A stretch of 13,104 bases of DNA from a virus (Duplodnaviria > Heunggongvirae > Uroviricota > Caudoviricetes): positions 1 to 13,104 of IMG/VR virus record IMGVR_UViG_2703718848_000006. The stretch is one strand, 5' to 3'. The notes beneath the pieces were generated by a model. That model worked only from the letters and a program-made list of their open reading frames with translations, made no database searches and had not been told where the DNA came from. Below are positions 2,015 to 12,767 of the stretch, piece after piece; position 1 is the stretch's first letter; each line of letters begins with the position of its first letter. The position numbers and the translations under genes were made by a program.

Positions 2015-2362
2015 ATGAAGAAATTATCCCTTTCACTGATGCTGAACGTGTCGCTGGTGATGATGCTGGCACTGTCCCTGATTTACCCGCAGAGCGTGGC
2101 CGTCAGTTTTGTCGCCACCTGGGCGATTCTGGCGACGGTTATCTGTGTGGTTGCCGGTGGTGTCGGGGTGTATGCCACTGAGTANNNNNNNNNNNNNNNN
2201 NNNNNNNNNNNNNNNNNNNTGATGGTGGCGACGTTTATCTCGCTGGTCGCTGCCGGGTGGATTTTTACTGCGCTGATTTACCTCGTGGCGTCGGTGTTCT
2301 TCCGGCTGATACGTACGGCCTGCCGTCAGCGTTTTGAGGGGCGGGAACCATGTCAAAGCTGA
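2015..2362 (+). CDS. lysA: LysA-like membrane protein (lysis timing), interrupted by a 35-N assembly gap
   Basis: Hydrophobic protein (MKKLSLSLMLNVSLVMMLALSLIYP...; ...MVATFISLVAAGWIFTALIYLVASVFF) between K and lysB. N-run 2185-2219 lies inside the ORF, so true length and frame continuity are unknown. Confidence 0.65.
   Translation: MKKLSLSLMLNVSLVMMLALSLIYPQSVAVSFVATWAILATVICVVAGGVGVYATEXXXXXXXXXXXXXMVATFISLVAAGWIFTALIYLVASVFFRLIRTACRQRFEGREPCQS
2185..2219. other. Assembly gap (35 N) inside lysA
   Basis: Run of N characters. Confidence 0.95.
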
Positions 2363-2793
2363 TGATTGTGCTGGTTGTGTTGTTATCACTGGCGGTGGCG
2401 GGGCTGTTTCTGGTGAAGCATGAAAATGCCAGCCTGCGCACCTCACTGGACAGGGCGAATAACGTCGCCAGTGGACAGCAGACGACCATCACCATGCTGA
2501 AAAATCAGCTTCATGTTGCCCTCACCAGGGCAGACAAAAACGAGCTGGCGCAGGTGGCACTGCGTCAGGAACTGGAGAACGCCGCCAAGCGTGAAGCACA
2601 GCGCGAGAAAACCATCACGAGGTTACTTAATGAAAACGAAGATTTTCGCCGCTGGTACGGCGCTGACCTGCCTGATGCTGTGCGCCGGTTGCACCAGCGC
2701 CCCGCCTGCACCGACGCCAGTGATTGTCCACAACGCCTGCCCGAAAGTGAGTCTTTGCCCGATGCCGGGCAGCGACCCGGAGACGAACGGTGA
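2350..2793 (+). CDS. lysB: LysB, Rz-like inner-membrane spanin (i-spanin)
   Basis: N-terminal TM helix (LMIVLVVLLSLAVAGLFLV) followed by a charged, coiled-coil-like periplasmic region. Overlaps the lysA end and contains lysC in the +1 frame. Confidence 0.8.
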   Translation: MSKLMIVLVVLLSLAVAGLFLVKHENASLRTSLDRANNVASGQQTTITMLKNQLHVALTRADKNELAQVALRQELENAAKREAQREKTITRLLNENEDFRRWYGADLPDAVRRLHQRPACTDASDCPQRLPESESLPDAGQRPGDER

Positions 2794-2920
2794 TTTAAGT
2801 GCCGATATCCGGCAGCTTGAGAACGCGCTGGCACGCTGTGCCAGCCAGGTAAAAATGATTAAACACTGTCAGGACGAAAACGATGCTCAAACCCGACAGC
2901 CTGCGCAGGGCGCTGACTGA
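2630..2920 (+). CDS. lysC: LysC, Rz1-like outer-membrane lipoprotein spanin (o-spanin), embedded out of frame in lysB
   Basis: Internal ATG at 2630 in the 2513-2920 frame gives MKTKIFAAGTALTCLMLCAGCTSAPPAPTP...: a signal peptide, a lipobox-like LCAGC and a Pro-rich mature part, typical of Rz1-type o-spanins. Extends past the lysB stop and overlaps the R start. Confidence 0.7.
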   Translation: MKTKIFAAGTALTCLMLCAGCTSAPPAPTPVIVHNACPKVSLCPMPGSDPETNGDLSADIRQLENALARCASQVKMIKHCQDENDAQTRQPAQGAD

Positions 2921-3350
2921 TGCCGTCACGGTGCTGAAAACAAGCCCCGAGATGCTGCGGATATTCGTGGATAACGGGAGTATTGCCTCCACACTGGCGA
3001 CGTCGCTGTCATTCGAAAAGCGTTACACGCTCAATGTCATTGTGACCGACTTTACCGGTGATTTTGACCTGCTCATTGTGCCGGTGCTGGCGTGGCTGCG
3101 GGAAAATCAGCCCGACATCATGACCACCGACGAAGGCCAGAAAAAGGGCTTCACGTTTTATGCGGACATCAACAATGACAGCAGCTTTGATATCAGTATC
3201 AGCCTGATGCTGACCGAGCGCACGCTGGTCAGTGAGGTTGACGGTGCACTGCATGTGAAGAATATCCCGGAACCTCCGCCGCCGGAGCCGGTCACCCGCC
3301 CGGTGGAGCTTTATATCAATGGCGAACTGGTGAGCAAGTGGGATGAATGA
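2883..3350 (+). CDS. R: Tail completion protein gpR, 155 aa
   Basis: MLKPDSLRRALTDAVTVLKTSPEMLRIFVDNGS... at the P2 R position. Stop TGA 3348-3350 overlaps the S start region. Confidence 0.85.
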   Translation: MLKPDSLRRALTDAVTVLKTSPEMLRIFVDNGSIASTLATSLSFEKRYTLNVIVTDFTGDFDLLIVPVLAWLRENQPDIMTTDEGQKKGFTFYADINNDSSFDISISLMLTERTLVSEVDGALHVKNIPEPPPPEPVTRPVELYINGELVSKWDE

Positions 3351-3795
3351 GTTTAAGCGTTTTGAAGACCGGCTGACCGGACTGATTGAGTCGCTGTCAC
3401 CGTCAGGGCGTCGGCGGCTGAGTGCAGAGCTGGCGAAGCGTCTGCGGCAGAGTCAGCAGCGTCGGGTGATGGCACAGAAAGCCCCGGACGGCACACCCTA
3501 CGCGCCACGCCAGCAGCAGAGCGCCAGAAAAAAGACCGGTCGTGTTAAGCGAAAAATGTTTGCGAAACTTATCACCAGTCGTTTTTTGCATATCCGCGCC
3601 AGCCCGGAACAGGCATCAATGGAATTTTACGGCGGGAAGTCGCCGAAAATCGCCAGTGTGCATCAGTTCGGTCTGTCGGAAGAAACCCGGAAAGACGGTA
3701 AGAAAATTGATTATCCGGCGCGTCCTCTGCTCGGCTTTACCGGTGAGGATGTGCAGATGATTGAAGAGATTATCCTGGCTCACCTTGAGCGTTAG
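3343..3795 (+). CDS. S: Tail completion protein gpS, 150 aa
   Basis: MNEFKRFEDRLTGLIESLSPSGRRRLSAELAKRLRQ... at the P2 S position. ATG at 3343 overlaps the R 3' end. Stop TAG 3793-3795. Confidence 0.85.
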   Translation: MNEFKRFEDRLTGLIESLSPSGRRRLSAELAKRLRQSQQRRVMAQKAPDGTPYAPRQQQSARKKTGRVKRKMFAKLITSRFLHIRASPEQASMEFYGGKSPKIASVHQFGLSEETRKDGKKIDYPARPLLGFTGEDVQMIEEIILAHLER

Positions 3796-3824
3796 TTTTA
3801 TCCAGGCAGAGGCTGATGCGCAAT

Positions 3825-3861
3825 TAAACATTGAGCGGCCATGCTGGTCGCTCAATGTTTA
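3825..3861. terminator. Perfect 13-bp inverted repeat (11-nt loop) between convergent S and the cargo-1 gene; candidate bidirectional terminator or RNA-stability hairpin
   Basis: TAAACATTGAGCG (3825-3837), loop GCCATGCTGGT, CGCTCAATGTTTA (3849-3861). Lies between the S stop (3795) and the minus-strand stop at 3867-3869. No clear U-tract on either strand. Confidence 0.4.
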
Positions 3862-3866
3862 GAGGT

Positions 3867-4652
3867 TTATGAGTGATTTTTATTTGATGCTTTGTATTCT
3901 AAAACCTTCTTATTGGCGTAAAAGAATTTTGTATATGACAGGAATATAACCAGACCTGAAGTGAAATAGACGAGGGATAGTATTAATAATGCTTTTTTGT
4001 GACTGTTATTATCTTTAATCTCCTGGTTTAACCATTCGGAGTCCTCCTCGTTTAGCTGTAAGAGCTTATTGCAGGCGATCTCAGGAAGTGTGTCTTTTAT
4101 AAATACGTTTTGCAGTCTCTTGCAATCGGCAAGGGTATAAGTTTTATTAAATTCAACTGCTTTATTTTTGAAGGATAAAAGAACTTTGTCACTATAAACA
4201 TAGTACATCATGTTTTTATATGGTATGCCTATGGCATCCCTTACTATAACGGATTGTTCGTTGTGTATGTAACATGCGAGGAGAATGTAAAAAATACTGG
4301 CCAGAATTACAATTATTGTTTTAATTATGTGTGGTGGTTTTGTTATGTCACCCCAGATGCGAGTAAGGAAAAAATACGATGTTTTTAGTTTTCCATCAAT
4401 CAGTCCCTGCTGTATCATTCTCACATTTTCAATGCCTGATACATTGATTCCGTTAATTATTTTAAATAGTTGAATGTCGCGCCACTCGCGGTCAAGTCTT
4501 TTTAATTTTTTGTCTGAATATCCAAAATTGAAATAATGTGCAATAAGCCTCATAAGGTTACTTTTACCAAAGCTAAAAAATGCTAATACTGCAAAGCTAC
4601 AAAGGAAAAAAACGATTAGCCCCCACACATTAGTCACATTATAGCTGACCAT
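3867..4652 (-). CDS. Cargo (moron) gene: 261-aa predicted three-TM membrane protein of unknown function at the S-V (P2 orf30) position
   Basis: ORF with AAGGAG RBS 6 nt upstream of the ATG at 4650-4652. AT-rich (about 25% GC on a sampled line versus ~57% in flanking structural genes). Hydrophobic segments at about aa 9-28, 108-129 and 221-240. Opposite strand to all flanking tail genes. No motif I recognise. Confidence 0.7.
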   Translation of the reverse strand: MVSYNVTNVWGLIVFFLCSFAVLAFFSFGKSNLMRLIAHYFNFGYSDKKLKRLDREWRDIQLFKIINGINVSGIENVRMIQQGLIDGKLKTSYFFLTRIWGDITKPPHIIKTIIVILASIFYILLACYIHNEQSVIVRDAIGIPYKNMMYYVYSDKVLLSFKNKAVEFNKTYTLADCKRLQNVFIKDTLPEIACNKLLQLNEEDSEWLNQEIKDNNSHKKALLILSLVYFTSGLVIFLSYTKFFYANKKVLEYKASNKNHS

Positions 4653-4735
4653 TACGCTCTCCTTGAATGTTGTCTGGTAGTTCTACAAATGAATCCAGAT
4701 AGCATAACTTTTATATATTGTGCAATCTCACATGC

Positions 4736-5349
4736 ATGAACACTCTCGCAAATATTCAGGAACTCGCGCGCGCACTGCGCAACATGATTCGCACCGGCAT
4801 TATCGTCGANNCCGCGTGCAGACCGGCGGCATGTGCACCGACTGGCTTCAGTGGCTGACCCATCGCGCAGGACGTTCGCGCACATGGTGGGCACCTTCCG
4901 TGGGGGAACAGGTGCTGATTCTGTCCGTGGGCGGTGAACTCGACACGGCATTCGTTCTGCCGGGGATTTATTCCGGCGATAACCCCGCGCCGTCTGCGTC
5001 GGCGGATGCCCTGCATATCCGTTTCCCTGACGGGGCGGTGATTGAGTATGAACCCGAAACCAGTGCACTTACGGTAAGCGGAATTAAAACGGCCAGCGTG
5101 ACGGCTTCTGATTCTGTTACTGCCACGGTGCCGGTGGTCATGGTGAAAGCATCAACCCGCGTCACCCTGGACACACCGGAGGTGGTCTGCACCAACAGGC
5201 TGATTACCGGCACGCTGGAAGTGCAGAAGGGCGGGACGATGCGCGGCAACATTGAACACACCGGCGGTGAACTCTCATCAAACGGTAAGGTACTGCATAC
5301 CCATAAACACCCCGGCGACAGCGGCGGCACAACCGGGGGACCTCTATGA
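4736..5349 (+). CDS. V: Baseplate spike/assembly protein gpV; 5' region interrupted by a 2-N gap
   Basis: ATG at 4736 gives MNTLANIQELARALRNMIRTGIIV, then NN at 4810-4811, after which the reading continues in another frame as RVQTGGMCTDWLQWLTHRAGRSRTWWAPSVGEQ...GDSGGTTGGPL. Both parts match P2 gpV as I recall it. The frame break coincides exactly with the gap, so it is an assembly artefact. Confidence 0.85.
4810..4811. other. Assembly gap (NN) inside gene V
   Basis: Two N characters; the reading frame of V changes across them. Confidence 0.95.
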
Positions 5350-5693
5350 CTGCGCGTTATCTCGGAATGAATCGCAGTGATGGCCTGACTGTCACTGACC
5401 TTGAGCATATTAGCCAGAGTATCGGCGATATCCTGCGCACACCGGTCGGCTCGCGGGTGATGCGTCGTGATTACGGCTCGTTGCTGGCGTCAATGATTGA
5501 CCAGCCGCAGACTCCGGCGCTTGAGTTGCAGATTAAGGTCGCCTGTTACATGGCGGTGCTGAAATGGGAACCCCGCGTCACCCTGTCATCCGTCACCACG
5601 GCGCGCAGCTTTGACGGTCGAATGACAGTTACGTTAACCGGCCAGCATAACGACACCGGCCAGCCACTTTCGTTAACCATCCCTGTGAGTTGA
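5346..5693 (+). CDS. W: Baseplate wedge protein gpW (T4 gp25-like), 115 aa
   Basis: MTARYLGMNRSDGLTVTDLEHISQSIGDILRTPVGSRVMRRDYGSLL... is the GPW/gp25 family signature. ATGA overlap with the V stop. Confidence 0.9.
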   Translation: MTARYLGMNRSDGLTVTDLEHISQSIGDILRTPVGSRVMRRDYGSLLASMIDQPQTPALELQIKVACYMAVLKWEPRVTLSSVTTARSFDGRMTVTLTGQHNDTGQPLSLTIPVS

Positions 5694-5697
5694 AACC

Positions 5698-6606
5698 ATG
5701 CCGATTATCGACCTGAACCAGCTACCCGCACCGGATGTGGTCGAGGAGCTGGACTTTGAAACCATTCTCGCTGAACGCAAGGCGACACTGATTTCCCTTT
5801 ACCCGGAAGACCAGCAGGAGGCGGTCGCCCGTACCCTGACACTGGAATCTGAGCCTCTCGTCAAACTGCTGGAGGAAAATGCTTATCGTGAGCTTATCTG
5901 GCGTCAGCGTGTGAATGAGGCTGCACGGGCGGTAATGCTGGCCTGTGCCGCCGGTAATGACCTTGATGTGATTGGTGCCAATTACAACACCACGCGCCTG
6001 ACTATCACCCCGGCAGATGATTCGACTATCCCGCCGACACCGGCAGTGATGGAATCTGACACCGATTATCGTCTGCGTATTCAGCAGGCTTTTGAGGGCT
6101 TAAGCGTCGCCGGGTCAGTGGGAGCCTATCAGTATCATGGTCGCAGTGCTGACGGGCGTGTCGCGGATATTTCTGTCACCAGTCCGTCTCCTGCCTGTGT
6201 CACCATCTCTGTGCTGTCACGTGAAAATAACGGCGTCGCATCCGAAGACCTGCTGGCTGTGGTGCGTAACGCCCTTAATGGCGAGGACGTCAGGCCGGTG
6301 GCCGACCGCGTGACCGTGCAGTCTGCCGCCATCGTTGAATACCAGATAAACGCCACGCTTTACCTTTACCCTGGTCCCGAAAGCGAACCCATCCGCGCTG
6401 CCGCTGTGAAAAAGCTGGAAGCGTATATCACGGCACAGCACCGGCTGGGGCGCGACATCCGTCTGTCTGCCATTTATGCCGCTTTGCATGTGGAAGGTGT
6501 GCAGCGTGTCGAACTGGCTGCACCACTGGCCGACATCGTGCTCAACAGTACGCAGGCGTCTTTCTGTACCGAATACCGCGTCGTGACCGGAGGCTCGGAT
6601 GAGTGA
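5698..6606 (+). CDS. J: Baseplate assembly protein gpJ, 302 aa
   Basis: MPIIDLNQLPAPDVVEELDFETILAERKATLISLYPEDQQ... Position after W and before I. The 3' end overlaps the I start. Confidence 0.9.
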   Translation: MPIIDLNQLPAPDVVEELDFETILAERKATLISLYPEDQQEAVARTLTLESEPLVKLLEENAYRELIWRQRVNEAARAVMLACAAGNDLDVIGANYNTTRLTITPADDSTIPPTPAVMESDTDYRLRIQQAFEGLSVAGSVGAYQYHGRSADGRVADISVTSPSPACVTISVLSRENNGVASEDLLAVVRNALNGEDVRPVADRVTVQSAAIVEYQINATLYLYPGPESEPIRAAAVKKLEAYITAQHRLGRDIRLSAIYAALHVEGVQRVELAAPLADIVLNSTQASFCTEYRVVTGGSDE

Positions 6607-7129
6607 TTCGCGACTGCTGCCGACCGGCTCATCACCGCTTGAGGTCGCCGCCGCAAAAGCCTGTGCGGAAATTGAAAAAACGCCGGTCAGTATTCGTGAG
6701 CTGTGGAACCCGGACACCTGTCCGGCAAATCTGCTGCCGTGGCTGGCGTGGGCGTTTTCGGTCGACAGGTGGGATGAAAAGTGGCCGGAAGCGACAAAAC
6801 GCGCCGTTATCCGCGATGCCCATTTCATCCACTGTCATAAGGGCACTATAGGTGCAATCCGGCGTGTGGTGGAGCCGCTCGGCTATCTCATCAACGTGAC
6901 GGAGTGGTGGGAAAACAGTGACCCGCCCGGCACCTTCCGGCTTGATATTGGTGTACTGGAAAGCGGTATCACAGAGGCAATGTATCAGGAAATTGAACGG
7001 CTGATTGCTGATGCCAAACCTGCAAGCCGCCACCTTATTGGCCTGAACATTACCCGGGACATTCCCGGATACCTGTTCGCCGGTGGTGTGGCTTACGACG
7101 GCGATGTAATTACGGTTTACCCCGGATAA
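6599..7129 (+). CDS. I: Baseplate/tail protein gpI, 176 aa
   Basis: MSDSRLLPTGSSPLEVAAAKACAEIEKTPVSIRELWNPDTCPANLLPWLAWAFSVDRWDE... ATG at 6599 overlaps the J 3' end. Confidence 0.9.
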   Translation: MSDSRLLPTGSSPLEVAAAKACAEIEKTPVSIRELWNPDTCPANLLPWLAWAFSVDRWDEKWPEATKRAVIRDAHFIHCHKGTIGAIRRVVEPLGYLINVTEWWENSDPPGTFRLDIGVLESGITEAMYQEIERLIADAKPASRHLIGLNITRDIPGYLFAGGVAYDGDVITVYPG

Positions 7130-7139
7130 GTGAGGAATA

Positions 7140-9350
7140 ATGAGCACAAAATTCAGAACCGTTATCACCACTGCCGGTGCAGCAAAGCTGGCAGCGGCAA
7201 CCGCACCGGGAGGGCGGAAGGTCAACATTACCACTATGGCCGTCGGGGATGGCGGTGGTAAATTGCCTGTCCCGGATGCCGGACAGACCGGGCTTATCCA
7301 TGAAGTCTGGCGACATGCGCTGAACAAAATCAGCCAGGACAAACGAAACAGTAATTATATTATCGCAGAGCTGGTTATTCCGCCGGAGGTGGGCGGTTTC
7401 TGGATGCGTGAGCTTGGCCTGTACGATGATGCGGGAACGTTAATTGCCGTGGCGAACATGGCCGAAAGTTATAAGCCAGCTCTTGCCGAAGGCTCAGGGC
7501 GTTCGCAGACCTGCCGCATGGTCATCATCGTCAGCAGTGTGGCCTCAGTGGAGCTGACCATTGACACCACAACGGTGATGGCGACGCAGGATTACGTTGA
7601 TGACAAAATTGCAGAGCATGAACAGTCACGACGTCACCCTGACGCCTCGCTGACCGCAAAAGGTTTTACTCAGTTAAGCAGTGCGACCAACAGCACGTCT
7701 GAAACACTGGCTGCAACGCCGAAAGCGGTAAAGACCGCCTATGACCTTGCTAACGGGAAATATACTGCACAGGACGCCACCACCGCGCGAAAAGGCCTTG
7801 TTCAGCTCAGTAGTGCGACTAACAGCACGTCTGAAACGCTCGCCGCAACGCCAAAAGCGGTAAAAGCAGCATATGACCTGGCTAACGGGAAATATACCGC
7901 ACAGGACGCCACCACCGCGCGAAAAGGGCTTGTCCAGCTAAGTAGCGTCACCAACAGCGATTCTGAAACGCTTGCGGCAACGCCAAAGGCGGTTAAGACA
8001 GCGTATGACCTTGCTAACGGGAAATACACTGCACAGGATGCCACCACAGCGCGAAAAGGTCTTGTCCAGCTCAGTAGCGCCACCAACAGCGATTATGAAA
8101 CGCTTGCGGCAACACCAAAAGCGGTGAAGTCTGCCTATGACAATGCTGAAAAACGTCTTCAGAAAGATCAGAACGGTGCGGATATTCCGGGAAAAGATAC
8201 TTTCACGAAAAATATCGGTGCCTGTCGTGCTTATAGCGGCGCTTTGAGCACTGAAGCCGGAAACTGGACAACCGCACAATTGATTGAATGGCTAGAGTCT
8301 CAAGGGGCATTCAATCACCCATACTGGATGTGCAAATGTTCATGGTCATACGGCAATAATAAAATTATTACCGATACTGGCTGTGGAACTATTCATCTTG
8401 CAGGTTGCGTTATTGAGGTTATGGGTAATAAAGCAGCAATGACCATTCGTGTGACCACTCCGAGTACATCAAGCGGTGGTGGTACCACCAGTGCGCAATT
8501 CACGTATATCAATCACGGAGCTGATTATGCGCCGGGCTGGCGACGTGACTACAATACGAAAAATAAGCAACCGGCTTTTGCATTAGGGAAAACAGGAAAT
8601 ACGGTTGCAAATAATAAAGCGGTAGGATGGAACTGGGACAGTGGTGCTTATTGTGCACAGGATGGCGGAGCATCAAAAATGGTGCTGCATTTTTACACGG
8701 GTGAGGGAAGTTGTCCGGCAATGCAGTTTCTTGTGGATTATAAAAACAGGGGGATTTTTTACAGGTCGGCACGTGATGGGTATGGATTTGAGGCTGACTG
8801 GTCTGAGTTTTATACAACATCACGAAAGCCAACACCTGCGGATATTCTTGCTCTGGCATTATCAGGCGGAAGCATGTCAGGCAGCATAAAATTTATCAAT
8901 GATGCCTTCCTGATTTGGGAAAGAAATACTGACTGGGCGAAGATTGGTTTTAAAAATGATGCCGACAGCGACACTGATTCATACATGTGGTTTGAAACAG
9001 GCGACAACGGCAATGAATATTTCAAATGGAGAAGCAAACAAAGCACCACAACAAAAGACCTGATGAATCTTAAGTCTGATGCACTACGGGTTACCGGGCA
9101 GGTGATACCATCAAATTTCAGCAATTTTGACTCCCGCTATGTCCGGGATATCCGGCTTGGTGGTGCCGCCACATACAAACCTGCGAACAATGGCATGACA
9201 TGGACGCATCAGGCTCCGTCAGGTTGCGTATATACCGGCATTATTGTTCAGGATACCGGCTCAAACTCTGCCGATAACATTGGTGGCGTATATTACAGAC
9301 CGGTGCAGAAATACATTAACGGGACATGGTATAACGTGGCGCAGGTATAA
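7140..9350 (+). CDS. H: Tail fibre protein gpH, 736 aa: conserved N-terminal baseplate-attachment domain, internal tandem repeats, divergent C-terminal receptor-binding region
   Basis: GAGG RBS at 7132-7135. N-terminus MSTKFRTVITTAGAAKLAAATAPGGRKVNITTMAVGDGGGKLPVPDAGQTGLIHEVWRHALNKISQDKRNSNYIIAELVIPPEVGGFWMRELGLYDDAG matches the P2 H N-terminal domain as I recall it. Followed by about 3.7 copies of a 44-aa repeat and a lower-GC C-terminal part. Confidence 0.9.
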   Translation: MSTKFRTVITTAGAAKLAAATAPGGRKVNITTMAVGDGGGKLPVPDAGQTGLIHEVWRHALNKISQDKRNSNYIIAELVIPPEVGGFWMRELGLYDDAGTLIAVANMAESYKPALAEGSGRSQTCRMVIIVSSVASVELTIDTTTVMATQDYVDDKIAEHEQSRRHPDASLTAKGFTQLSSATNSTSETLAATPKAVKTAYDLANGKYTAQDATTARKGLVQLSSATNSTSETLAATPKAVKAAYDLANGKYTAQDATTARKGLVQLSSVTNSDSETLAATPKAVKTAYDLANGKYTAQDATTARKGLVQLSSATNSDYETLAATPKAVKSAYDNAEKRLQKDQNGADIPGKDTFTKNIGACRAYSGALSTEAGNWTTAQLIEWLESQGAFNHPYWMCKCSWSYGNNKIITDTGCGTIHLAGCVIEVMGNKAAMTIRVTTPSTSSGGGTTSAQFTYINHGADYAPGWRRDYNTKNKQPAFALGKTGNTVANNKAVGWNWDSGAYCAQDGGASKMVLHFYTGEGSCPAMQFLVDYKNRGIFYRSARDGYGFEADWSEFYTTSRKPTPADILALALSGGSMSGSIKFINDAFLIWERNTDWAKIGFKNDADSDTDSYMWFETGDNGNEYFKWRSKQSTTTKDLMNLKSDALRVTGQVIPSNFSNFDSRYVRDIRLGGAATYKPANNGMTWTHQAPSGCVYTGIIVQDTGSNSADNIGGVYYRPVQKYINGTWYNVAQV
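7659..8144 (+). repeat. In-frame tandem repeat, 132-nt (44-aa) period, about 3.7 copies, inside tail fibre gene H
   Basis: Copies begin at 7659, 7791, 7923 and 8055 (partial). Unit K-G-[FL]-[TV]-QLSS-[AV]-TNS-[TD]-SETLAATPKAVK-x-AYDLANGKYTAQDATTAR, with synonymous and near-synonymous nucleotide differences between copies. Confidence 0.9.
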
Positions 9351-9353
9351 TTT

Positions 9354-9853
9354 ATGCAGCATTTAAAAAATNNCAATATCAATTGACAAAGAATTTTGAT
9401 GTTGTCTGGTTTTTTTCAGAAGATGGTAAGAACTGGTACGAAGAACAAAAGTATTTTGCTGATGACACGATAAAAATAGCGTACGACAAAGATAATATCA
9501 TCCGCTATGTGGAAAAGGATGTGACAGCTATCAGACCGGATGGATTAAGTGTTGTTGAAGTGGCGGATATTACTGCTAACCGACGGGCGGACATTTCAGG
9601 GAACTGGATGTTTAAGGATGGCACAGTGATCAAACGAATTTATACGGCAGAGGAATTGCAACAGCAGGCAGAAAACAGGAAAGCCAGACTTCTTGCAGAT
9701 GCTGAATCAGTCATCCAGCCGCTGGAACGCGCTGTCAGGCTGAATATGGCAACAGACGAGGAACGCACACGACTGGAAGCATGGGAACGCTACAGTGTTC
9801 TGGTCAGCCGTGTGGATCCTGCAAATCCTGAATGGCCGGAAATGCCGCAATAA
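9354..9853 (+). CDS. G: Tail fibre assembly protein (gpG/Tfa-like chaperone); 5' end interrupted by a 2-N gap
   Basis: ATG at 9354 (MQHLKN), then NN at 9372-9373, after which the long frame continues as [20 protein letters not shown]...[47 protein letters not shown]. This C-terminal region is the conserved Tfa chaperone domain. The track's TTG at 9383 is probably not the true start. Confidence 0.75.
9372..9373. other. Assembly gap (NN) at the 5' end of the tail fibre assembly gene
   Basis: Two N characters; frame break between the MQHLKN start and the downstream ORF. Confidence 0.95.
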
Positions 9854-10087
9854 CTTGTATGAGCTCTAGTGTGAGCTTACATATCTATGGCACAGAGTAA
9901 AGCCTAATCTGACAGTCCGCTCTGTGCCAGAAGCGGACATTGCGGCGTTACGGCACGTTAGGTCAGATATTTAAATGCACATGGTCCGCTTGTGGCGGAA
10001 GGATACTTACAAGAGTTGGTGAGAGATAGTAAAATCAATATGAAAATTAAAATTCGGCAATAATTCCTGATATAGTCATCTTAATGA

Positions 10088-10122
10088 ACATAAAAACTAT
10101 CACAATAGGATAGTTTTTATGT
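10088..10122. terminator. Perfect 14-bp AT-rich inverted repeat (7-nt loop) just 3' of the cargo-2 operon; candidate bidirectional terminator
   Basis: ACATAAAAACTATC (10088-10101), loop ACAATAG, GATAGTTTTTATGT (10109-10122). Lies 13 nt beyond the stop (10135-10137) of the last minus-strand gene. T-rich on both strands, but only 3 of 14 stem pairs are GC. Confidence 0.4.
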
Positions 10123-10134
10123 CATACTTGTTAG

Positions 10135-10830
10135 TTAATCACTTAAGGAATGAAGTGAGGCTCGTTGTGCAGAGGTTAAGCTAAGGAGGATTTTTTCTCG
10201 ATACTCAGGTGCAAAGGAAAAGAAAACATCAGGAAAAATTCTTATGATAGTTGATATCATAGTCTTAACCACCTTATCAATCACCTTCGAAATATTATCT
10301 ATTTTAACCAAGTCTATTTCGGGAAAAACATTTAAAGCTTTTATGTGAGCCATTTCTTTTACAGTAGCTGTATGTACGTGACTGCATAACGAAGAGTATT
10401 CAGCTTTTAAAGTTTCATGTAGTAGAGGATTTTTTTTGAAGACAGGATGTTCCCCAGTTTGTTCAATTACCTTAAACAATGATTTTTCTTCAAGTATTGA
10501 AGGATCTAGTAAGCAACCGATTGATTTTAAAGAATTTTCAATATAACTTCGCATCATTAGATTTGCTGGTTTGTATGCACCATTTATAACCATAAACATA
10601 GCTGTACCAAGGTCAGATGAAGCTTCTTGCAATCGCTCCAATGAGTTGGCGTCTATTTTCTCCTTGGAGAAATGATACAAACAGTAAACAAGGCACATAA
10701 AAGAATAATATCTCTTATGTATCATGCTTATTTTCCCTCTTGAGTTAATATTCTCGAAAACATTTTTTAATTTATATTCAGAGAAATAAGTAACTAACTC
10801 AGTGAAATCGCTGTTTACTTCTCTCGACAT
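10135..10830 (-). CDS. Cargo-2 gene 3: hypothetical protein, 231 aa
   Basis: ATG at 10828-10830 with AAGGA RBS about 6 nt upstream. Only 2 nt separate it from the stop of the upstream gene. AT-rich. No catalytic or structural motif I can recognise. Confidence 0.65.
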   Translation of the reverse strand: MSREVNSDFTELVTYFSEYKLKNVFENINSRGKISMIHKRYYSFMCLVYCLYHFSKEKIDANSLERLQEASSDLGTAMFMVINGAYKPANLMMRSYIENSLKSIGCLLDPSILEEKSLFKVIEQTGEHPVFKKNPLLHETLKAEYSSLCSHVHTATVKEMAHIKALNVFPEIDLVKIDNISKVIDKVVKTMISTIIRIFPDVFFSFAPEYREKILLSLTSAQRASLHSLSD

Positions 10831-10832
10831 TG

Positions 10833-11339
10833 TTAGTCCTTATTGAATATATCTTTTATAACTTCATTCCAGTCATATATCTCATTTTGAGCGCTAGAAA
10901 GGTTCTTCCTCTCTTTTATTCTACTCAAAACTAGAGGGTTATTTGACATTGAATTGATAATATTATAAGCCTTACCTAAATCGGATGAGTTTTTCTCGTG
11001 AACGTCACACACGATTATGCCGATCATTTCCTCTCTAGATCTTTTTTCAGGCCTGCTGATTTCGATACCTAACATGCGTGCAAAATCATCTATATCTTTA
11101 TTTTTTTGGAAGAGATCTTTGTCTAATAAAATCCTCGGAAGATACCCAACAAGGAAACCTTTAATATCATTTTTTTTAGACTTTGAATTTCTTTCGTTAA
11201 CTTCTAAATTATCAGTATAACTATCTTGAAGTAATTCAATAAAGTTGATTCTTGATAATTTTTTTGAAATAAAGGAAAACTCCTCTAAAAAGTTTAACAG
11301 TTGCTTAATTTCTTTTGAGTTATTTTTTTTGTCAGTCAT
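10833..11339 (-). CDS. Cargo-2 gene 2: hypothetical protein, 168 aa, Lys/Glu/Asn-rich
   Basis: ATG at 11337-11339 overlaps the TGA of the ParA-like gene (ATGA overlap, translational coupling). No recognisable motif. Confidence 0.65.
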   Translation of the reverse strand: MTDKKNNSKEIKQLLNFLEEFSFISKKLSRINFIELLQDSYTDNLEVNERNSKSKKNDIKGFLVGYLPRILLDKDLFQKNKDIDDFARMLGIEISRPEKRSREEMIGIIVCDVHEKNSSDLGKAYNIINSMSNNPLVLSRIKERKNLSSAQNEIYDWNEVIKDIFNKD

Positions 11340-12166
11340 AAGTCACCTACTCTAGAGAGAAGTTCGTCAGTAATTTTAGACAGCGAAAACTTCATATCCT
11401 CATCAGTTAAATTGTTAATAAATAAGCCTCTTGTTTGATTTCTTGCCAACTCAGTACGTTTGCTCAAATATGATTTAAAGATCTTATTACGCCAACGTTT
11501 TTGATTATTGAAGTAACGAAGACTTTCCTCATATAAATTACTATTACCTTCAACCATATTAAAAACTATGCCCGCACATTCAATCTTAAGATCGAAATTT
11601 TCTCTCTTCTCATTTATAATGCTATCTAATAGATCGATACCAGTGATCGAAAGAGGATCGGGTTTGGCTGGAATGAGGTAATAATCAGATGCAATTAATG
11701 CGCTGGACATCCAAACTGATGGGGTTGGTGGGGTATCAATTATGACATAATCATAGTCATTTTCATGGATTTTAAGAAAGCGTCTAAGCTTGTTTTCTAT
11801 CCCTTCTCCTGGTTTCATTTCAATTTTATATAGCCCAAGGCTTCCGGGAACAATGTGAAAATTATCATTTAATTGAATTGGTGTTATATCGGCTAATTCT
11901 TTAGGTGTGTTAACTAAAGGACCAGTCATTGTAGATAGTCGAATTTTTGAACTATAAAAAATATCACATATGCTATCGCCTCCGCTTTTCATATGTGCAA
12001 CATATTTGCTTGTATCCATTACACATTGCGTTGCGTTAAATTGTGGGTCGATATCTATTAATAATATTTTTTGCCCAAGTTTATCTGAAAGATGATTAGC
12101 AATATTGGTAGCCAATGTTGACTTACCAACGCCACCTTTCATATTGATTAAGCTAATAACTTTCAA
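11336..12166 (-). CDS. Cargo-2 gene 1: ParA/MinD/Soj-family deviant Walker-A ATPase, 276 aa
   Basis: N-terminus (M/L)KVISLINMKGGVGKSTLATNIANHL carries the deviant Walker A motif KGGxxK[ST]. LLIDIDPQFNAT and the Walker B-like YDYVIIDTPP are also typical ParA motifs. Probable TTG start at 12164-12166 with AGGAG SD 8 nt upstream; an alternative ATG start lies at Met9. Confidence 0.85.
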   Translation of the reverse strand: MKVISLINMKGGVGKSTLATNIANHLSDKLGQKILLIDIDPQFNATQCVMDTSKYVAHMKSGGDSICDIFYSSKIRLSTMTGPLVNTPKELADITPIQLNDNFHIVPGSLGLYKIEMKPGEGIENKLRRFLKIHENDYDYVIIDTPPTPSVWMSSALIASDYYLIPAKPDPLSITGIDLLDSIINEKRENFDLKIECAGIVFNMVEGNSNLYEESLRYFNNQKRWRNKIFKSYLSKRTELARNQTRGLFINNLTDEDMKFSLSKITDELLSRVGDL

Positions 12167-12180
12167 TCTTCTTGCTCCTG

Positions 12181-12199
12181 TTTTGATTAACGCTAAGCT
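12181..12199. repeat. Direct repeat copy B (TTTTGATTAACGCTAAGCT), immediately upstream of the ParA-like gene RBS
   Basis: Matches 12394-12413 (ATTTTGATTAACACTTAAGCT) at 19/20 positions with one indel. The two copies are about 213 bp apart and bracket the AT-rich presumed promoter region. Confidence 0.6.
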
Positions 12200-12393
12200 T
12201 TTTCATCAGCATTGAAATTTAACATGTGTTTTACAAACTTATGTCTTATCACTACCTTATCATTTTTTACATACACCATAAATATTTTTAACTAAAAATT
12301 TTTGGTTTTCAACCTGAAATCTTTATCTTTAAAAACAAAACATTACAATATTTTTAGTAAGATGCCTTACCTAATGTAATGTGAATGGCTCAA

Positions 12394-12413
12394 TTTTGAT
12401 TAACACTTAAGCT
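12394..12413. repeat. Direct repeat copy C, at the distal edge of the AT-rich cargo-2 upstream region
   Basis: See copy B. A weaker related motif (TTAATCACTTAAG, 10135-10147) overlaps the stop codon at the other end of the operon. Confidence 0.55.
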
Positions 12414-12767
12414 ATGTTAATAATGGTTTTGTAAGTGTGATGAGGGTTCCATATGAAGAAGTGATTTCCCGAACAATACAACATGAATATCATCCTCGTA
12501 GTCGGTGTTTCTTCACATGAACTCTGTCGCAAATACGCTATATGAAACGTGGCAAGATGAATGTACCTGAGGTTATCAATCTTAAACCGCTTGAGAGTAC
12601 GCCCTGATCCTGCCCGTTGATAAACTAACTGCATTGTTTGTAATGCTTCATCGGTGGTGAGAACAAGTTTCGTACTTCCGCTTCTCGCTCAAAGCAGACT
12701 GTCAGATTTGATAGCGTTTTGGCTATGTAAGTTGCCAGTTGGGAAATGAGTGAGTACAAATCAGGAC

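What the first reader, a model, noticed from the sequence alone, without database searches (positions are those of the whole stretch)
8160..9853. Compositionally distinct host-range module: C-terminal part of H plus the tail-fibre assembly gene
The N-terminal ~170 aa of H look like the conserved P2 baseplate-attachment domain, whereas the C-terminal ~400 aa (Cys-, Trp-, Asn- and Gly-rich, e.g. CKCSWSYGNNKIITDTGCGTIHLAGC) is divergent and visibly lower in GC (about 37-47% on sampled lines versus ~57% in J/I). The downstream chaperone has a conserved Tfa C-terminal domain. This pattern fits horizontal exchange of the receptor-binding tip and its cognate chaperone as a cassette, which would determine host range if the prophage is inducible.
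Basis: partly seen in the sequence, partly recalled or inferred. Interest (0 to 1): 0.45.

Follow-up and report, generated by a model that had tools for sequence, protein, structure and literature searches.

The report
Mosaic P2 tail-fibre tip and chaperone
The low-GC stretch is the distal half of a P2-type prophage tail-fibre gene plus its assembly chaperone, a textbook patchwork of modules shared with phages Mu and P1, so it is real but ordinary.

Summary
Window 8160-9853 has 45.3% GC (GC3 0.43-0.44), against 55.8-59.4% in every equal-sized window of the P2 backbone (GC3 about 0.61). It encodes residues 341-736 of tail fibre H and the Tfa-family chaperone G.

The region is not one cassette but at least four independently assorting patches:
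- a Mu S'/P1 Sv'-type module (8160-8852);
- a Mu S-type block (8853-9107);
- an 80-residue tip (9108-9347);
- gene G, whose variable N-domain and conserved C-domain have different nearest relatives.

Only the tip and the G N-domain travel together. The 22 phage records with at least 90% identity to the tip are exactly the 22 with at least 90% identity to the G N-domain. The modules upstream of the tip differ freely among those records.

The GC drop is not specific to this prophage. P2 itself and every relative examined show it, as do the Mu and P1 homologues.

No invertase, crossover site or alternative inverted cassette is present, so this is a fixed fibre and not a switch.

The H protein is already in NCBI as an E. 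coli tail fibre protein. Phage fiAA91-ss carries the same module set.

Verdict: already known, low interest.

The parts
7140..9350 (+). Gene H, tail fibre, 736 aa, intact ORF
   Evidence: ORF list. PF12571, four PF03406 stretches, gp37_C and Gp34_trimer. The exact sequence is WP_061360889.1, 'tail fiber protein [Escherichia coli]'.
7140..7592 (+). H aa 1-151, N-terminal tail-collar/baseplate-attachment domain on the P2 backbone
   Evidence: PF12571 at E = 1e-58. H aa 1-170 are 98-100% identical to P2, fiAA91-ss and HQ103. GC 0.555.
7686..8141 (+). Tandem array of 132-bp (44-aa) Phage_fiber_2 shaft repeats, 3.5 copies by TRF and 4 Pfam stretches. Copy number varies among relatives.
   Evidence: TRF. 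PF03406 at E = 1e-79. fiAA91-ss H is 132 nt shorter. Identity to P2 breaks inside the array at about 7864.
8160..8852 (+). H aa 341-571, Mu S'/P1 Sv'-type module containing the Cys/Trp-rich motif at 8331-8408
   Evidence: PDB 8ju3 (Mu S/S' chimera) residues 177-416, 399 bits. 82% aa and 81% nt identity to P1 Sv', 75% aa to Mu Sv'. GC 0.459, GC3 0.385.
8853..9107 (+). H aa 572-656, Mu S-type block. Its core, 8923-9082, is a highly conserved linker-like patch.
   Evidence: PDB 5yvq_A residues 184-267, 128 bits. 8923-9082 is 96-97% nt identical to Mu, P1 and P88. Identity to fiAA91-ss and S19-141 is only 78-89% in the 120-nt windows starting at 8880-9000. PF21446 matches aa 599-655.
9108..9347 (+). 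H aa 657-736, distal tip. The variable core, aa ~680-718 (nt ~9177-9293), lies between the conserved frames NFDSRYVRDIRLG and RPVQKYINGTWYNVAQV.
   Evidence: Same frame as the Mu S tip, 5yvq_A 426-503, and as short tail fibre 9cuy_c 483-552. 100% identical in fiAA91-ss, 95% in 11W and P22H1, 44-51% in P2, Mu, P1, P88 and 12474III. The core aligns with host-range region HR2 of phage P88 (PMC5285337).
9354..9853 (+). Gene G, tail-fibre assembly chaperone (Tfa/Caudo_TAP). 175 aa expected. NN at 9372-9373 replaces 30 nt.
   Evidence: PF02413 at E = 2e-35. 5yvq_B, Mu Tfa U, at E = 2e-75. phrog_136. N-run length established against L002 and L003.
9383..9622 (+). G N-terminal, fibre-binding domain (variable), co-inherited with the H tip
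   Evidence: 93.8-96.3% identity in 22 phage records, which are the same 22 that have at least 90% tip identity. At most 72.5% identity elsewhere. GC 0.404.
9623..9850 (+). G C-terminal domain (conserved). Its 3' end is closer to P2 and 12474III than to fiAA91-ss.
   Evidence: 80-96% aa identity across all myovirus relatives examined. Sliding identity in the 120-nt windows starting at 9720 and 9780 is 92-96% to P2 and 12474III and 88-90% to fiAA91-ss. GC 0.518.
9854..9937 (+). Conserved 3' flank of G, ending in the left arm (9906-9937) of the inverted repeat that bounds the Z/fun cargo slot. This is the right-hand edge of the exchangeable unit.
   Evidence: Homology to 11W, P2, 12474III and others ends at 9926-9943. 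Inverted repeat. Arms conserved in other P2-like loci.

Best explanation
Window 8160-9853 is the distal, host-recognition end of the tail-fibre operon of a P2-like (Peduovirus) prophage of E. coli.

Architecture of H. The fibre has a P2 attachment domain and a shaft of 44-aa repeats. These are joined to three modules drawn from the fibre gene pool shared by P2-, Mu-, P1- and lambda-like enterobacterial phages: a Mu S'/P1 Sv'-type module, a Mu S-type block and an 80-aa tip.

Role of G. G is a two-domain Tfa chaperone. By analogy with the solved Mu S-U complex, its variable N-domain binds the fibre tip. Its conserved C-domain drives trimerisation starting from the C-terminus.

How the patchwork arises (inferred). 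Homologous recombination occurs at short, highly conserved patches that flank the variable segments:
- the shaft repeats and the NGADIPGKDTF motif;
- the 160-bp block at 8923-9082;
- NFDSRYVRD-RLG;
- the H end and G start;
- the G C-domain and its 3' flank.

Why tip and G stay linked (inferred). The chaperone must fit the tip, so the tip and the G N-domain are inherited together while everything upstream assorts freely.

Why the GC is low (inferred). The low GC is a property of this shared module pool, not a sign of a recent private acquisition.

What is shown: composition, module homologies, breakpoints and the tip/G N-domain linkage. What is inferred: the recombination mechanism, the binding role of the G N-domain here, and the effect on host range.
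For: - The late-gene order is K-lysA/B/C-R-S-orf30-V-W-J-I-H-G, with 96-98% nt identity to P2 up to 7864.
- GC and GC3 drop across the region.
- Module homologies to solved structures: 8ju3 (Mu S'), 5yvq_A (Mu S) and 5yvq_B (Mu U).
- Segment-wise identities show discordant relatives for each module. Nucleotide breakpoints are mapped.
- In 50,697 phage records, the set with at least 90% tip identity and the set with at least 90% G N-domain identity are the same 22 records. Only 4 of them also have the S'-type module at over 95%.
- In 5,426 complete E. coli genomes, the tip plus G N-domain stretch is at least 90% identical in 209 records. The S'-type module reaches that level in 43.
- The same GC drop occurs in P2 and seven other Peduovirus loci: 0.45-0.49 in H beyond nt 1020 and 0.44-0.46 in G, against 0.56-0.58 upstream. 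The Mu and P1 homologues run 0.42-0.49.
- The modular Tfa model, with a variable N-domain binding the distal fibre and a conserved C-domain for trimerisation, is summarised in PMC9608196.
- Host range was mapped to the equivalent of H aa ~680-718 in P2-like phage P88 (PMC5285337).
Against: - Nothing here shows that this prophage is inducible or that the fibre is functional. Only a 13.1-kb contig with three N-runs is available, and 30 nt of G are missing from the record.
- The tip/G-N linkage rests on about a dozen distinct phages once GenBank/RefSeq duplicates are merged. Those phages are related, so part of the linkage could reflect physical adjacency alone (about 35 bp apart) and not functional constraint.
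- The receptor is unknown.
- Recombination at conserved patches is inferred from breakpoint positions. It was not observed.
Confidence: 0.88

Rival explanations
1. Single-cassette transfer. The whole roughly 1.7-kb stretch (H aa 341-736 plus tfa) was acquired in one horizontal event as a receptor-binding tip with its cognate chaperone.
For: - fiAA91-ss, a 'Peduovirus P2' record (OU784750) and E. coli S19-141 carry the whole stretch at 93-97% identity.
- The GC is lower throughout the stretch.
Against: - Different parts have different nearest relatives.
- Even against fiAA91-ss, identity falls to 78-89% in the 120-nt windows starting at 8880-9000, where Mu and P1 are 97% identical (8923-9082). 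It also falls to 88-90% in the windows starting at 9600-9780.
- The tip plus G stretch is about five times more frequent than the S'-type module in E. coli genomes.
- The GC drop is family-wide.
Confidence: 0.08
2. The low GC is a by-product of amino-acid composition and structural constraints of fibre domains rich in Asn, Tyr, Gly and Trp. It has nothing to do with exchange.
For: The C-terminal part has more Asn, Tyr and Trp, and less Ala.
Against: - GC3, which is largely free of amino-acid choice, falls just as much, from 0.61 to 0.43.
- G, a helical and beta-sandwich chaperone of different composition, shows the same drop.
- Direct nucleotide homology of 73-97% to Mu and P1 shows exchange.
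Confidence: 0.05
3. A host-range switch of the Mu G-segment or P1 C-segment kind, or a decayed remnant of one. The S'-type module would be evidence of an invertible segment.
For: - Strong homology to the invertible-segment products Sv' and Sv of Mu and P1.
- Peduoviridae phage P88 does carry an invertase with two fibre/tfa sets.
Against: - No recombinase domain was found in the window ORFs that were scanned.
- There is only one tfa and no inverted fibre fragment downstream.
- No gix/cix-like sequence lies at the junction. Homology to Mu Sv' starts 41 nt inside the G segment.
- S'-type and S-type sequences are fused in tandem in a single ORF.
Confidence: 0.02
4. The tfa gene is a frameshifted pseudogene, so the module is dead cargo.
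For: As written, ATG 9354 runs into a stop at 9384. The long ORF starts only at TTG 9383, in another frame.
Against: - The shift coincides with 'NN' at 9372-9373. Relatives have exactly 30 nt there, which restores one 528-nt, 175-aa frame.
- The window's 35-N run replaces 113 nt in relatives, so N-runs in this record do not keep length.
Confidence: 0.04

Closest known systems
Phage P2 genes H and G (tail fibre and assembly protein). Haggard-Ljungquist, Halling & Calendar 1992, J Bacteriol 174:1462, cited in PMC9594776 and PMC13100340; that paper itself is not held in the library.
   Same: - Same operon position after V-W-J-I.
- H aa 1-170 are 98% identical.
- Same 44-aa shaft repeats.
- G is 75% identical overall.
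- Same GC drop in the distal part of H and in G.
   Different: - P2 H (669 aa) has no detectable counterpart of aa 341-571.
- P2 has a different tip type (45% identity) and fewer repeats.
- The G N-domain is only 68% identical.
Enterobacteria phage fiAA91-ss (KF322032), genes H and G, and the equivalent prophage in E. coli S19-141
   Same: - Same module set and order.
- aa 341-571 are 98% identical and the tip is 100% identical.
- The G N-domain is 96-98% identical.
- S19-141 also has the same ParA-type cargo downstream.
   Different: - fiAA91-ss has one repeat fewer (692 aa).
- The S-type block is 89% identical in protein and 78-89% in nucleotides.
- The G C-domain is 88-92% identical.
- H in S19-141 is annotated as a pseudogene with an internal stop.
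Phage Mu tail fibres S and S' with chaperones U and U' (PDB 5yvq and 8ju3), and the P1 S/Sv'/U/U' homologues
   Same: - aa 334-571 align to Mu S' residues 177-416 at very high similarity.
- aa 573-656 align to Mu S residues 184-267.
- The tip frame equals Mu S residues 426-503.
- G aligns end to end with Mu U at E = 2e-75.
   Different: - In Mu and P1, S- and S'-type sequences are alternatives on an invertible segment. Here they are fused in one fixed ORF.
- There is no invertase and no crossover site.
- The tip core differs (about 50% identity).
- Mu S residues 268-424 have no counterpart.
Peduovirus phages 11W, 12W, D8, P22H1, P24E6b and relatives
   Same: Tip 95% identical and G 93-95% identical, with nucleotide homology from 9091 to 9937.
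   Different: Much longer H (919 aa). The N-domain is only 85-86% identical, the middle modules are unrelated or 47% identical, and there is no S-type block.

Membership tests
P2 gpH-type tail fibre | N-terminal tail-collar/baseplate-attachment domain (PF12571) | tested here: met
   E = 1e-58 over aa 1-151. aa 1-170 are 98% identical to P2 H.
P2 gpH-type tail fibre | Position directly after baseplate genes J and I, followed by the assembly gene G | tested here: met
   PF04865 (J) and PF09684 (I) lie upstream and PF02413 downstream. The layout is colinear with the annotated P2 record.
P2 gpH-type tail fibre | Shaft of Phage_fiber_2 repeats (PF03406) | tested here: met
   Four stretches at E = 1e-79. 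132-bp tandem array.
P2 gpH-type tail fibre | Forms a trimeric fibre that binds a host surface receptor | not testable with these tools
   Inferred from homology to solved Mu fibres and from host-range mapping in phage P88 (PMC5285337).
Tfa / Caudo_TAP tail-fibre assembly chaperones | PF02413 domain across the protein | tested here: met
   E = 2e-35 over aa 21-156 of the 156 visible residues. phrog_136 at E = 4e-72. Mu U, 5yvq_B, at E = 2e-75.
Tfa / Caudo_TAP tail-fibre assembly chaperones | Two-domain design: variable N-domain matched to the fibre tip, conserved C-domain | tested here: met
   Outside the tip-sharing group the N half is 66-70% and the C half 80-87% identical. Both rise to 92-98% only where the tip is shared. 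The 22 tip records are the 22 G-N records.
Tfa / Caudo_TAP tail-fibre assembly chaperones | Intact reading frame | tested here: inconclusive
   NN at 9372-9373 hides 30 nt. The frame is restored if the gap equals that in relatives.
Mu S'/P1 Sv'-type distal fibre module | Sequence homology along the whole module to the solved Mu S' structure | tested here: met
   8ju3_A residues 177-416 against H aa 334-571, 399 bits. 82% identity to P1 Sv'.
Invertible host-range segment (Mu G, P1 C, p15B Min, e14 P) | Din-family serine invertase gene next to the fibre genes | tested here: not met
   No resolvase/invertase domain in the window ORFs scanned on either side of H-G. The window is colinear with P2, which has none here. 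Only 13.1 kb of the prophage is visible.
Invertible host-range segment (Mu G, P1 C, p15B Min, e14 P) | Paired inverted crossover sites (gix/cix) within the fibre gene and downstream | tested here: not met
   No gix-like match in 8000-8300. The only long inverted repeat, 9906-9937 / 12677-12708, flanks the cargo slot and not the fibre.
Invertible host-range segment (Mu G, P1 C, p15B Min, e14 P) | Second, oppositely oriented fibre-tip plus tfa set | tested here: not met
   The Mu and P1 U, U', Sv and Sv' sequences all map to the single H-G copy and nowhere else in the stretch compared, 7000-10200. The ORFs beyond it, at 10135-12166, are a ParA-like ATPase and two proteins with no tail-fibre or tfa match.

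The most novel reading that the evidence does not exclude
The fibre stacks a Mu S'-type module upstream of a Mu S-type block and a third tip type. In Mu, the S' fibre serves the alternative G(-) host range. The composite here could therefore carry two receptor-contacting regions, giving a broadened or dual specificity that neither parent fibre has. The 9091-9937 unit, tip plus G, would then be the minimal naturally validated swap unit for retargeting P2-based particles.
Probability: 0.08. Interest if true: 0.45.

Novelty: already known. Interest (0 to 1): 0.15.

Why it matters
The finding adds little. Mosaic tail fibres with a linked chaperone are the classic example of modular phage evolution, and this allele is already catalogued.

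The one practical point is the fine map. It shows that only the last roughly 80 residues of H need to travel with G. That agrees with the Mu structural model and with host-range mapping in phage P88. It marks natural junctions (8160, about 8850-8920, about 9090 and 9937) that could guide the design of chimeric P2 fibres or tailocins.

Tried and rejected
- Looked for an invertible switch: an invertase, gix/cix sites or a second inverted cassette. None was found.
- Considered a frameshifted tfa. Rejected, because the shift sits on an NN placeholder that stands for 30 nt.
- Rfam scan of the whole window found nothing. The terminator and promoter scan of 9300-10300 did not exceed the shuffle expectation.
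- NCBIfam has no model hit for H.
- Tried to read three papers: Haggard-Ljungquist 1992 (PMC206541), Christie & Calendar 2016 (PMC4836473) and North & Davidson 2021 (PMC7811200). None is held. Their content is cited only through their titles as listed in other papers, or as my own knowledge.
- Did not run structure prediction of the tip. Solved structures of close homologues cover every module. A monomer model of an intertwined trimer would also be uninformative.
- The first exact-sequence look-up of the three cargo proteins used coordinates that cut the minus-strand ORFs wrongly. Its 'not in the collection' result is therefore meaningless.
Full report
**Context**

The window is a whole 13,104-nt E. 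coli contig. It carries the late region of a P2-like (Peduovirus) prophage.
- Gene order is K, lysA/B/C, R, S, orf30, V, W, J, I, H, G, then a cargo slot, then the start of FI.
- It is colinear with the annotated P2 record at 96-98% nucleotide identity up to position 7864.
- Three N-runs are present (2185-2219, 4810-4811, 9372-9373) and at least two do not preserve length. The 35 N replace 113 nt in relatives, and the NN at 9372-9373 replaces exactly 30 nt.
- Gene G therefore starts at ATG 9354 (MQHLKN...) and should encode 175 aa. The TTG at 9383 reported by the ORF finder is an artefact of the gap.

**Observation check**

The compositional claim is correct.
- Region 8160-9853 has GC 0.453. 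All 78 backbone windows of the same length lie between 0.558 and 0.594.
- GC3 falls from 0.60-0.66 in W, J, I and H aa 1-170 to 0.43 in H aa 341-736 and 0.44 in G. Fisher tests give p = 3e-10 for GC3 and p = 2e-12 for all positions.
- The quoted Cys-rich motif lies at H aa 398-423. The C-terminal part is enriched in Cys, Trp, Asn and Gly.
- H aa 1-151 match PF12571. Four PF03406 repeats follow, seen as a 132-bp tandem array at 7686-8141. G matches PF02413.

**What the region is made of**

A sequence search of the PDB shows that each part has a solved homologue.
- H aa 334-571 align to Mu S' (8ju3 residues 177-416, 399 bits).
- H aa 573-656 align to Mu S (5yvq_A residues 184-267).
- The last roughly 80 residues share the frame of the Mu S tip (5yvq_A 426-503) and of a short tail fibre (9cuy_c 483-552). 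The internal core differs.
- G aligns end to end with the Mu chaperone U (5yvq_B, E = 2e-75).

Nucleotide comparisons give the following map.
- 8160-8830 matches P1 Sv' at 81% and Mu Sv' at 73%.
- 8923-9082 matches Mu, P1 and P88 at 96-97%.
- 9091-9937 matches phages 11W and P22H1 at 88-90%.
- 9291/9296 onward (ending at 9853-9943) matches every other P2-, Mu- or P1-type G at 72-78%.

**Not one cassette**

Segment-wise protein identities against 13 loci are discordant.
- fiAA91-ss and the E. coli S19-141 prophage share all modules.
- 12474III and YpM_117 share aa 1-571 (69-99%) but not the tip (47-48%) or the G N-domain (66-69%).
- 11W and P22H1 share the tip (95%) and the G N-domain (95-98%). 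Their aa 341-571 are only 47% identical and the S-type block is absent.

Even against its closest relatives the window is patchy.
- Identity to fiAA91-ss drops to 78-89% in the 120-nt windows starting at 8880-9000. Within that span, 8923-9082 is 97% identical to Mu and P1.
- Identity to fiAA91-ss drops to 88-90% in the windows starting at 9600-9780. In the windows starting at 9720 and 9780, P2 and 12474III are closer, at 92-96%.

**Tip and chaperone linkage**

- In the phage collection (50,697 records), 22 records have at least 90% identity to the 80-aa tip, and 22 have at least 90% identity to the G N-domain. They are the same 22 accessions.
- The next-best pair, vB_YpM_41 and vB_YpM_44, is also the same in both lists.
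- Only four of the 22 also have the S'-type module at over 95%.
- In 5,426 complete E. coli genomes, the tip plus G N-domain stretch is at least 90% identical in 209 records. The S'-type module reaches that level in 43. That module also has 84 of its 394 matching places on plasmids.
- The co-inherited unit is therefore about 850 bp (9091-9937), not the 1.7 kb proposed.

This fits the published model for Mu Tfa. A non-conserved N-domain binds the distal fibre, and a conserved C-domain drives trimerisation from the C-terminus (summarised in PMC9608196).

It also fits the experimental mapping of host range in P2-like phage P88 to HR2, aa 716-746 (PMC5285337). HR2 aligns with H aa ~680-718 here, between the conserved frames NFDSRYVRD-RLG and RPVQKYINGTWYNVAQV.

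**Meaning of the low GC**

- The same drop is present in P2 itself: H beyond nt 1020 is 0.448 and G is 0.438, against 0.577 upstream.
- It is present in all seven other Peduovirus loci measured.
- The Mu and P1 homologues have GC 0.42-0.49 whatever their backbone.

The composition therefore belongs to the shared fibre-module pool and is family-wide. It does not mark a recent acquisition by this prophage. Because GC3 falls as much as total GC, amino-acid composition alone does not explain it.

**Mechanism**

- Shown: mosaic structure, the breakpoints, and the tip/G-N linkage.
- Inferred: exchange by homologous recombination at short conserved patches that flank the variable segments. These are the shaft repeats and NGADIPGKDTF motif, the 8923-9082 block, the NFDSRYVRD-RLG frame, the H end and G start, and the G C-domain with its 3' flank.
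- Inferred: selection keeps the tip with a fitting chaperone N-domain.

The region is not a Mu G- or P1 C-type switch.
- No invertase domain was found in the window ORFs that were scanned.
- No gix-like site is present at the junction. Homology to Mu Sv' begins 41 nt inside the G segment.
- There is no second inverted fibre/tfa set.

**Comparison with the known, and novelty**

This is the phenomenon described for P2 H and G in 1992. I know that paper only by its title, as cited in PMC9594776 and PMC13100340, and from my own knowledge.
- The module set is that of phage fiAA91-ss.
- The exact H sequence is already in NCBI as WP_061360889.1. It is a singleton at 90% clustering, because of its fourth repeat and the Mu/P1-like patch.
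- About 30 of the 5,426 complete E. coli genomes carry the whole arrangement at 93-95% identity.

Verdict: real, correctly located, ordinary, already known.

Noticed in passing
window 9938-12676 (ORFs 10135-10830, 10833-11339 and 11336-12166, all on the minus strand): A very low-GC (0.30-0.34) three-gene cargo sits in the P2 Z/fun slot between G and FI. It encodes a ParA/AAA_31-like ATPase (276 aa) and two proteins of unknown function (168 and 231 aa; phrog_12497 and phrog_12265). PADLOC gives no real hit. The 2.7-kb stretch is at least 99% identical in 133 of 5,426 complete E. coli genomes but has no megablast match in the phage collection. The Z/fun locus is described as a defence hotspot (PMC13586616), so this may be an uncharacterised anti-phage system.
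   Followed up: partly
window 9906-9937 and 12677-12708: A 32-nt inverted repeat (88% complementary) sits exactly at the two edges of the cargo slot, where homology to P2 stops and resumes. Both arms are conserved in seven of the nine P2-like loci checked. P2 has only the right arm, and YpM_117 only the left. The cargo between the arms differs from locus to locus.
   Followed up: partly
window 3867-4652 (minus strand): A second low-GC island (GC 0.34) is P2 orf30, a non-essential gene of unknown function. It lies within a stretch (2220-7864) that is 97% identical to P2. It has no Pfam or PADLOC hit.
   Followed up: partly
window 2185-2219, 4810-4811, 9372-9373: N-runs in this contig do not preserve length. 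The 35 N stand for 113 nt of lysA in relatives. The NN in G stands for 30 nt. ORF calls across these sites are therefore unreliable: lysA, the V start and the G start are affected.
   Followed up: yes
window 8923-9082: A 160-bp block inside H is 96-97% identical to Mu S, P1 S and P88. Identity to the window's otherwise closest relatives, fiAA91-ss and S19-141, is only 78-89% in the 120-nt windows starting at 8880-9000. This looks like a small gene-conversion patch from a Mu- or P1-like fibre gene.
   Followed up: partly
L003 (E. coli S19-141) 8001-10079: The closest full-length relative of this H gene is annotated as a pseudogene with an internal stop. Its FI gene is truncated, so that prophage appears to be decaying.
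   Followed up: no
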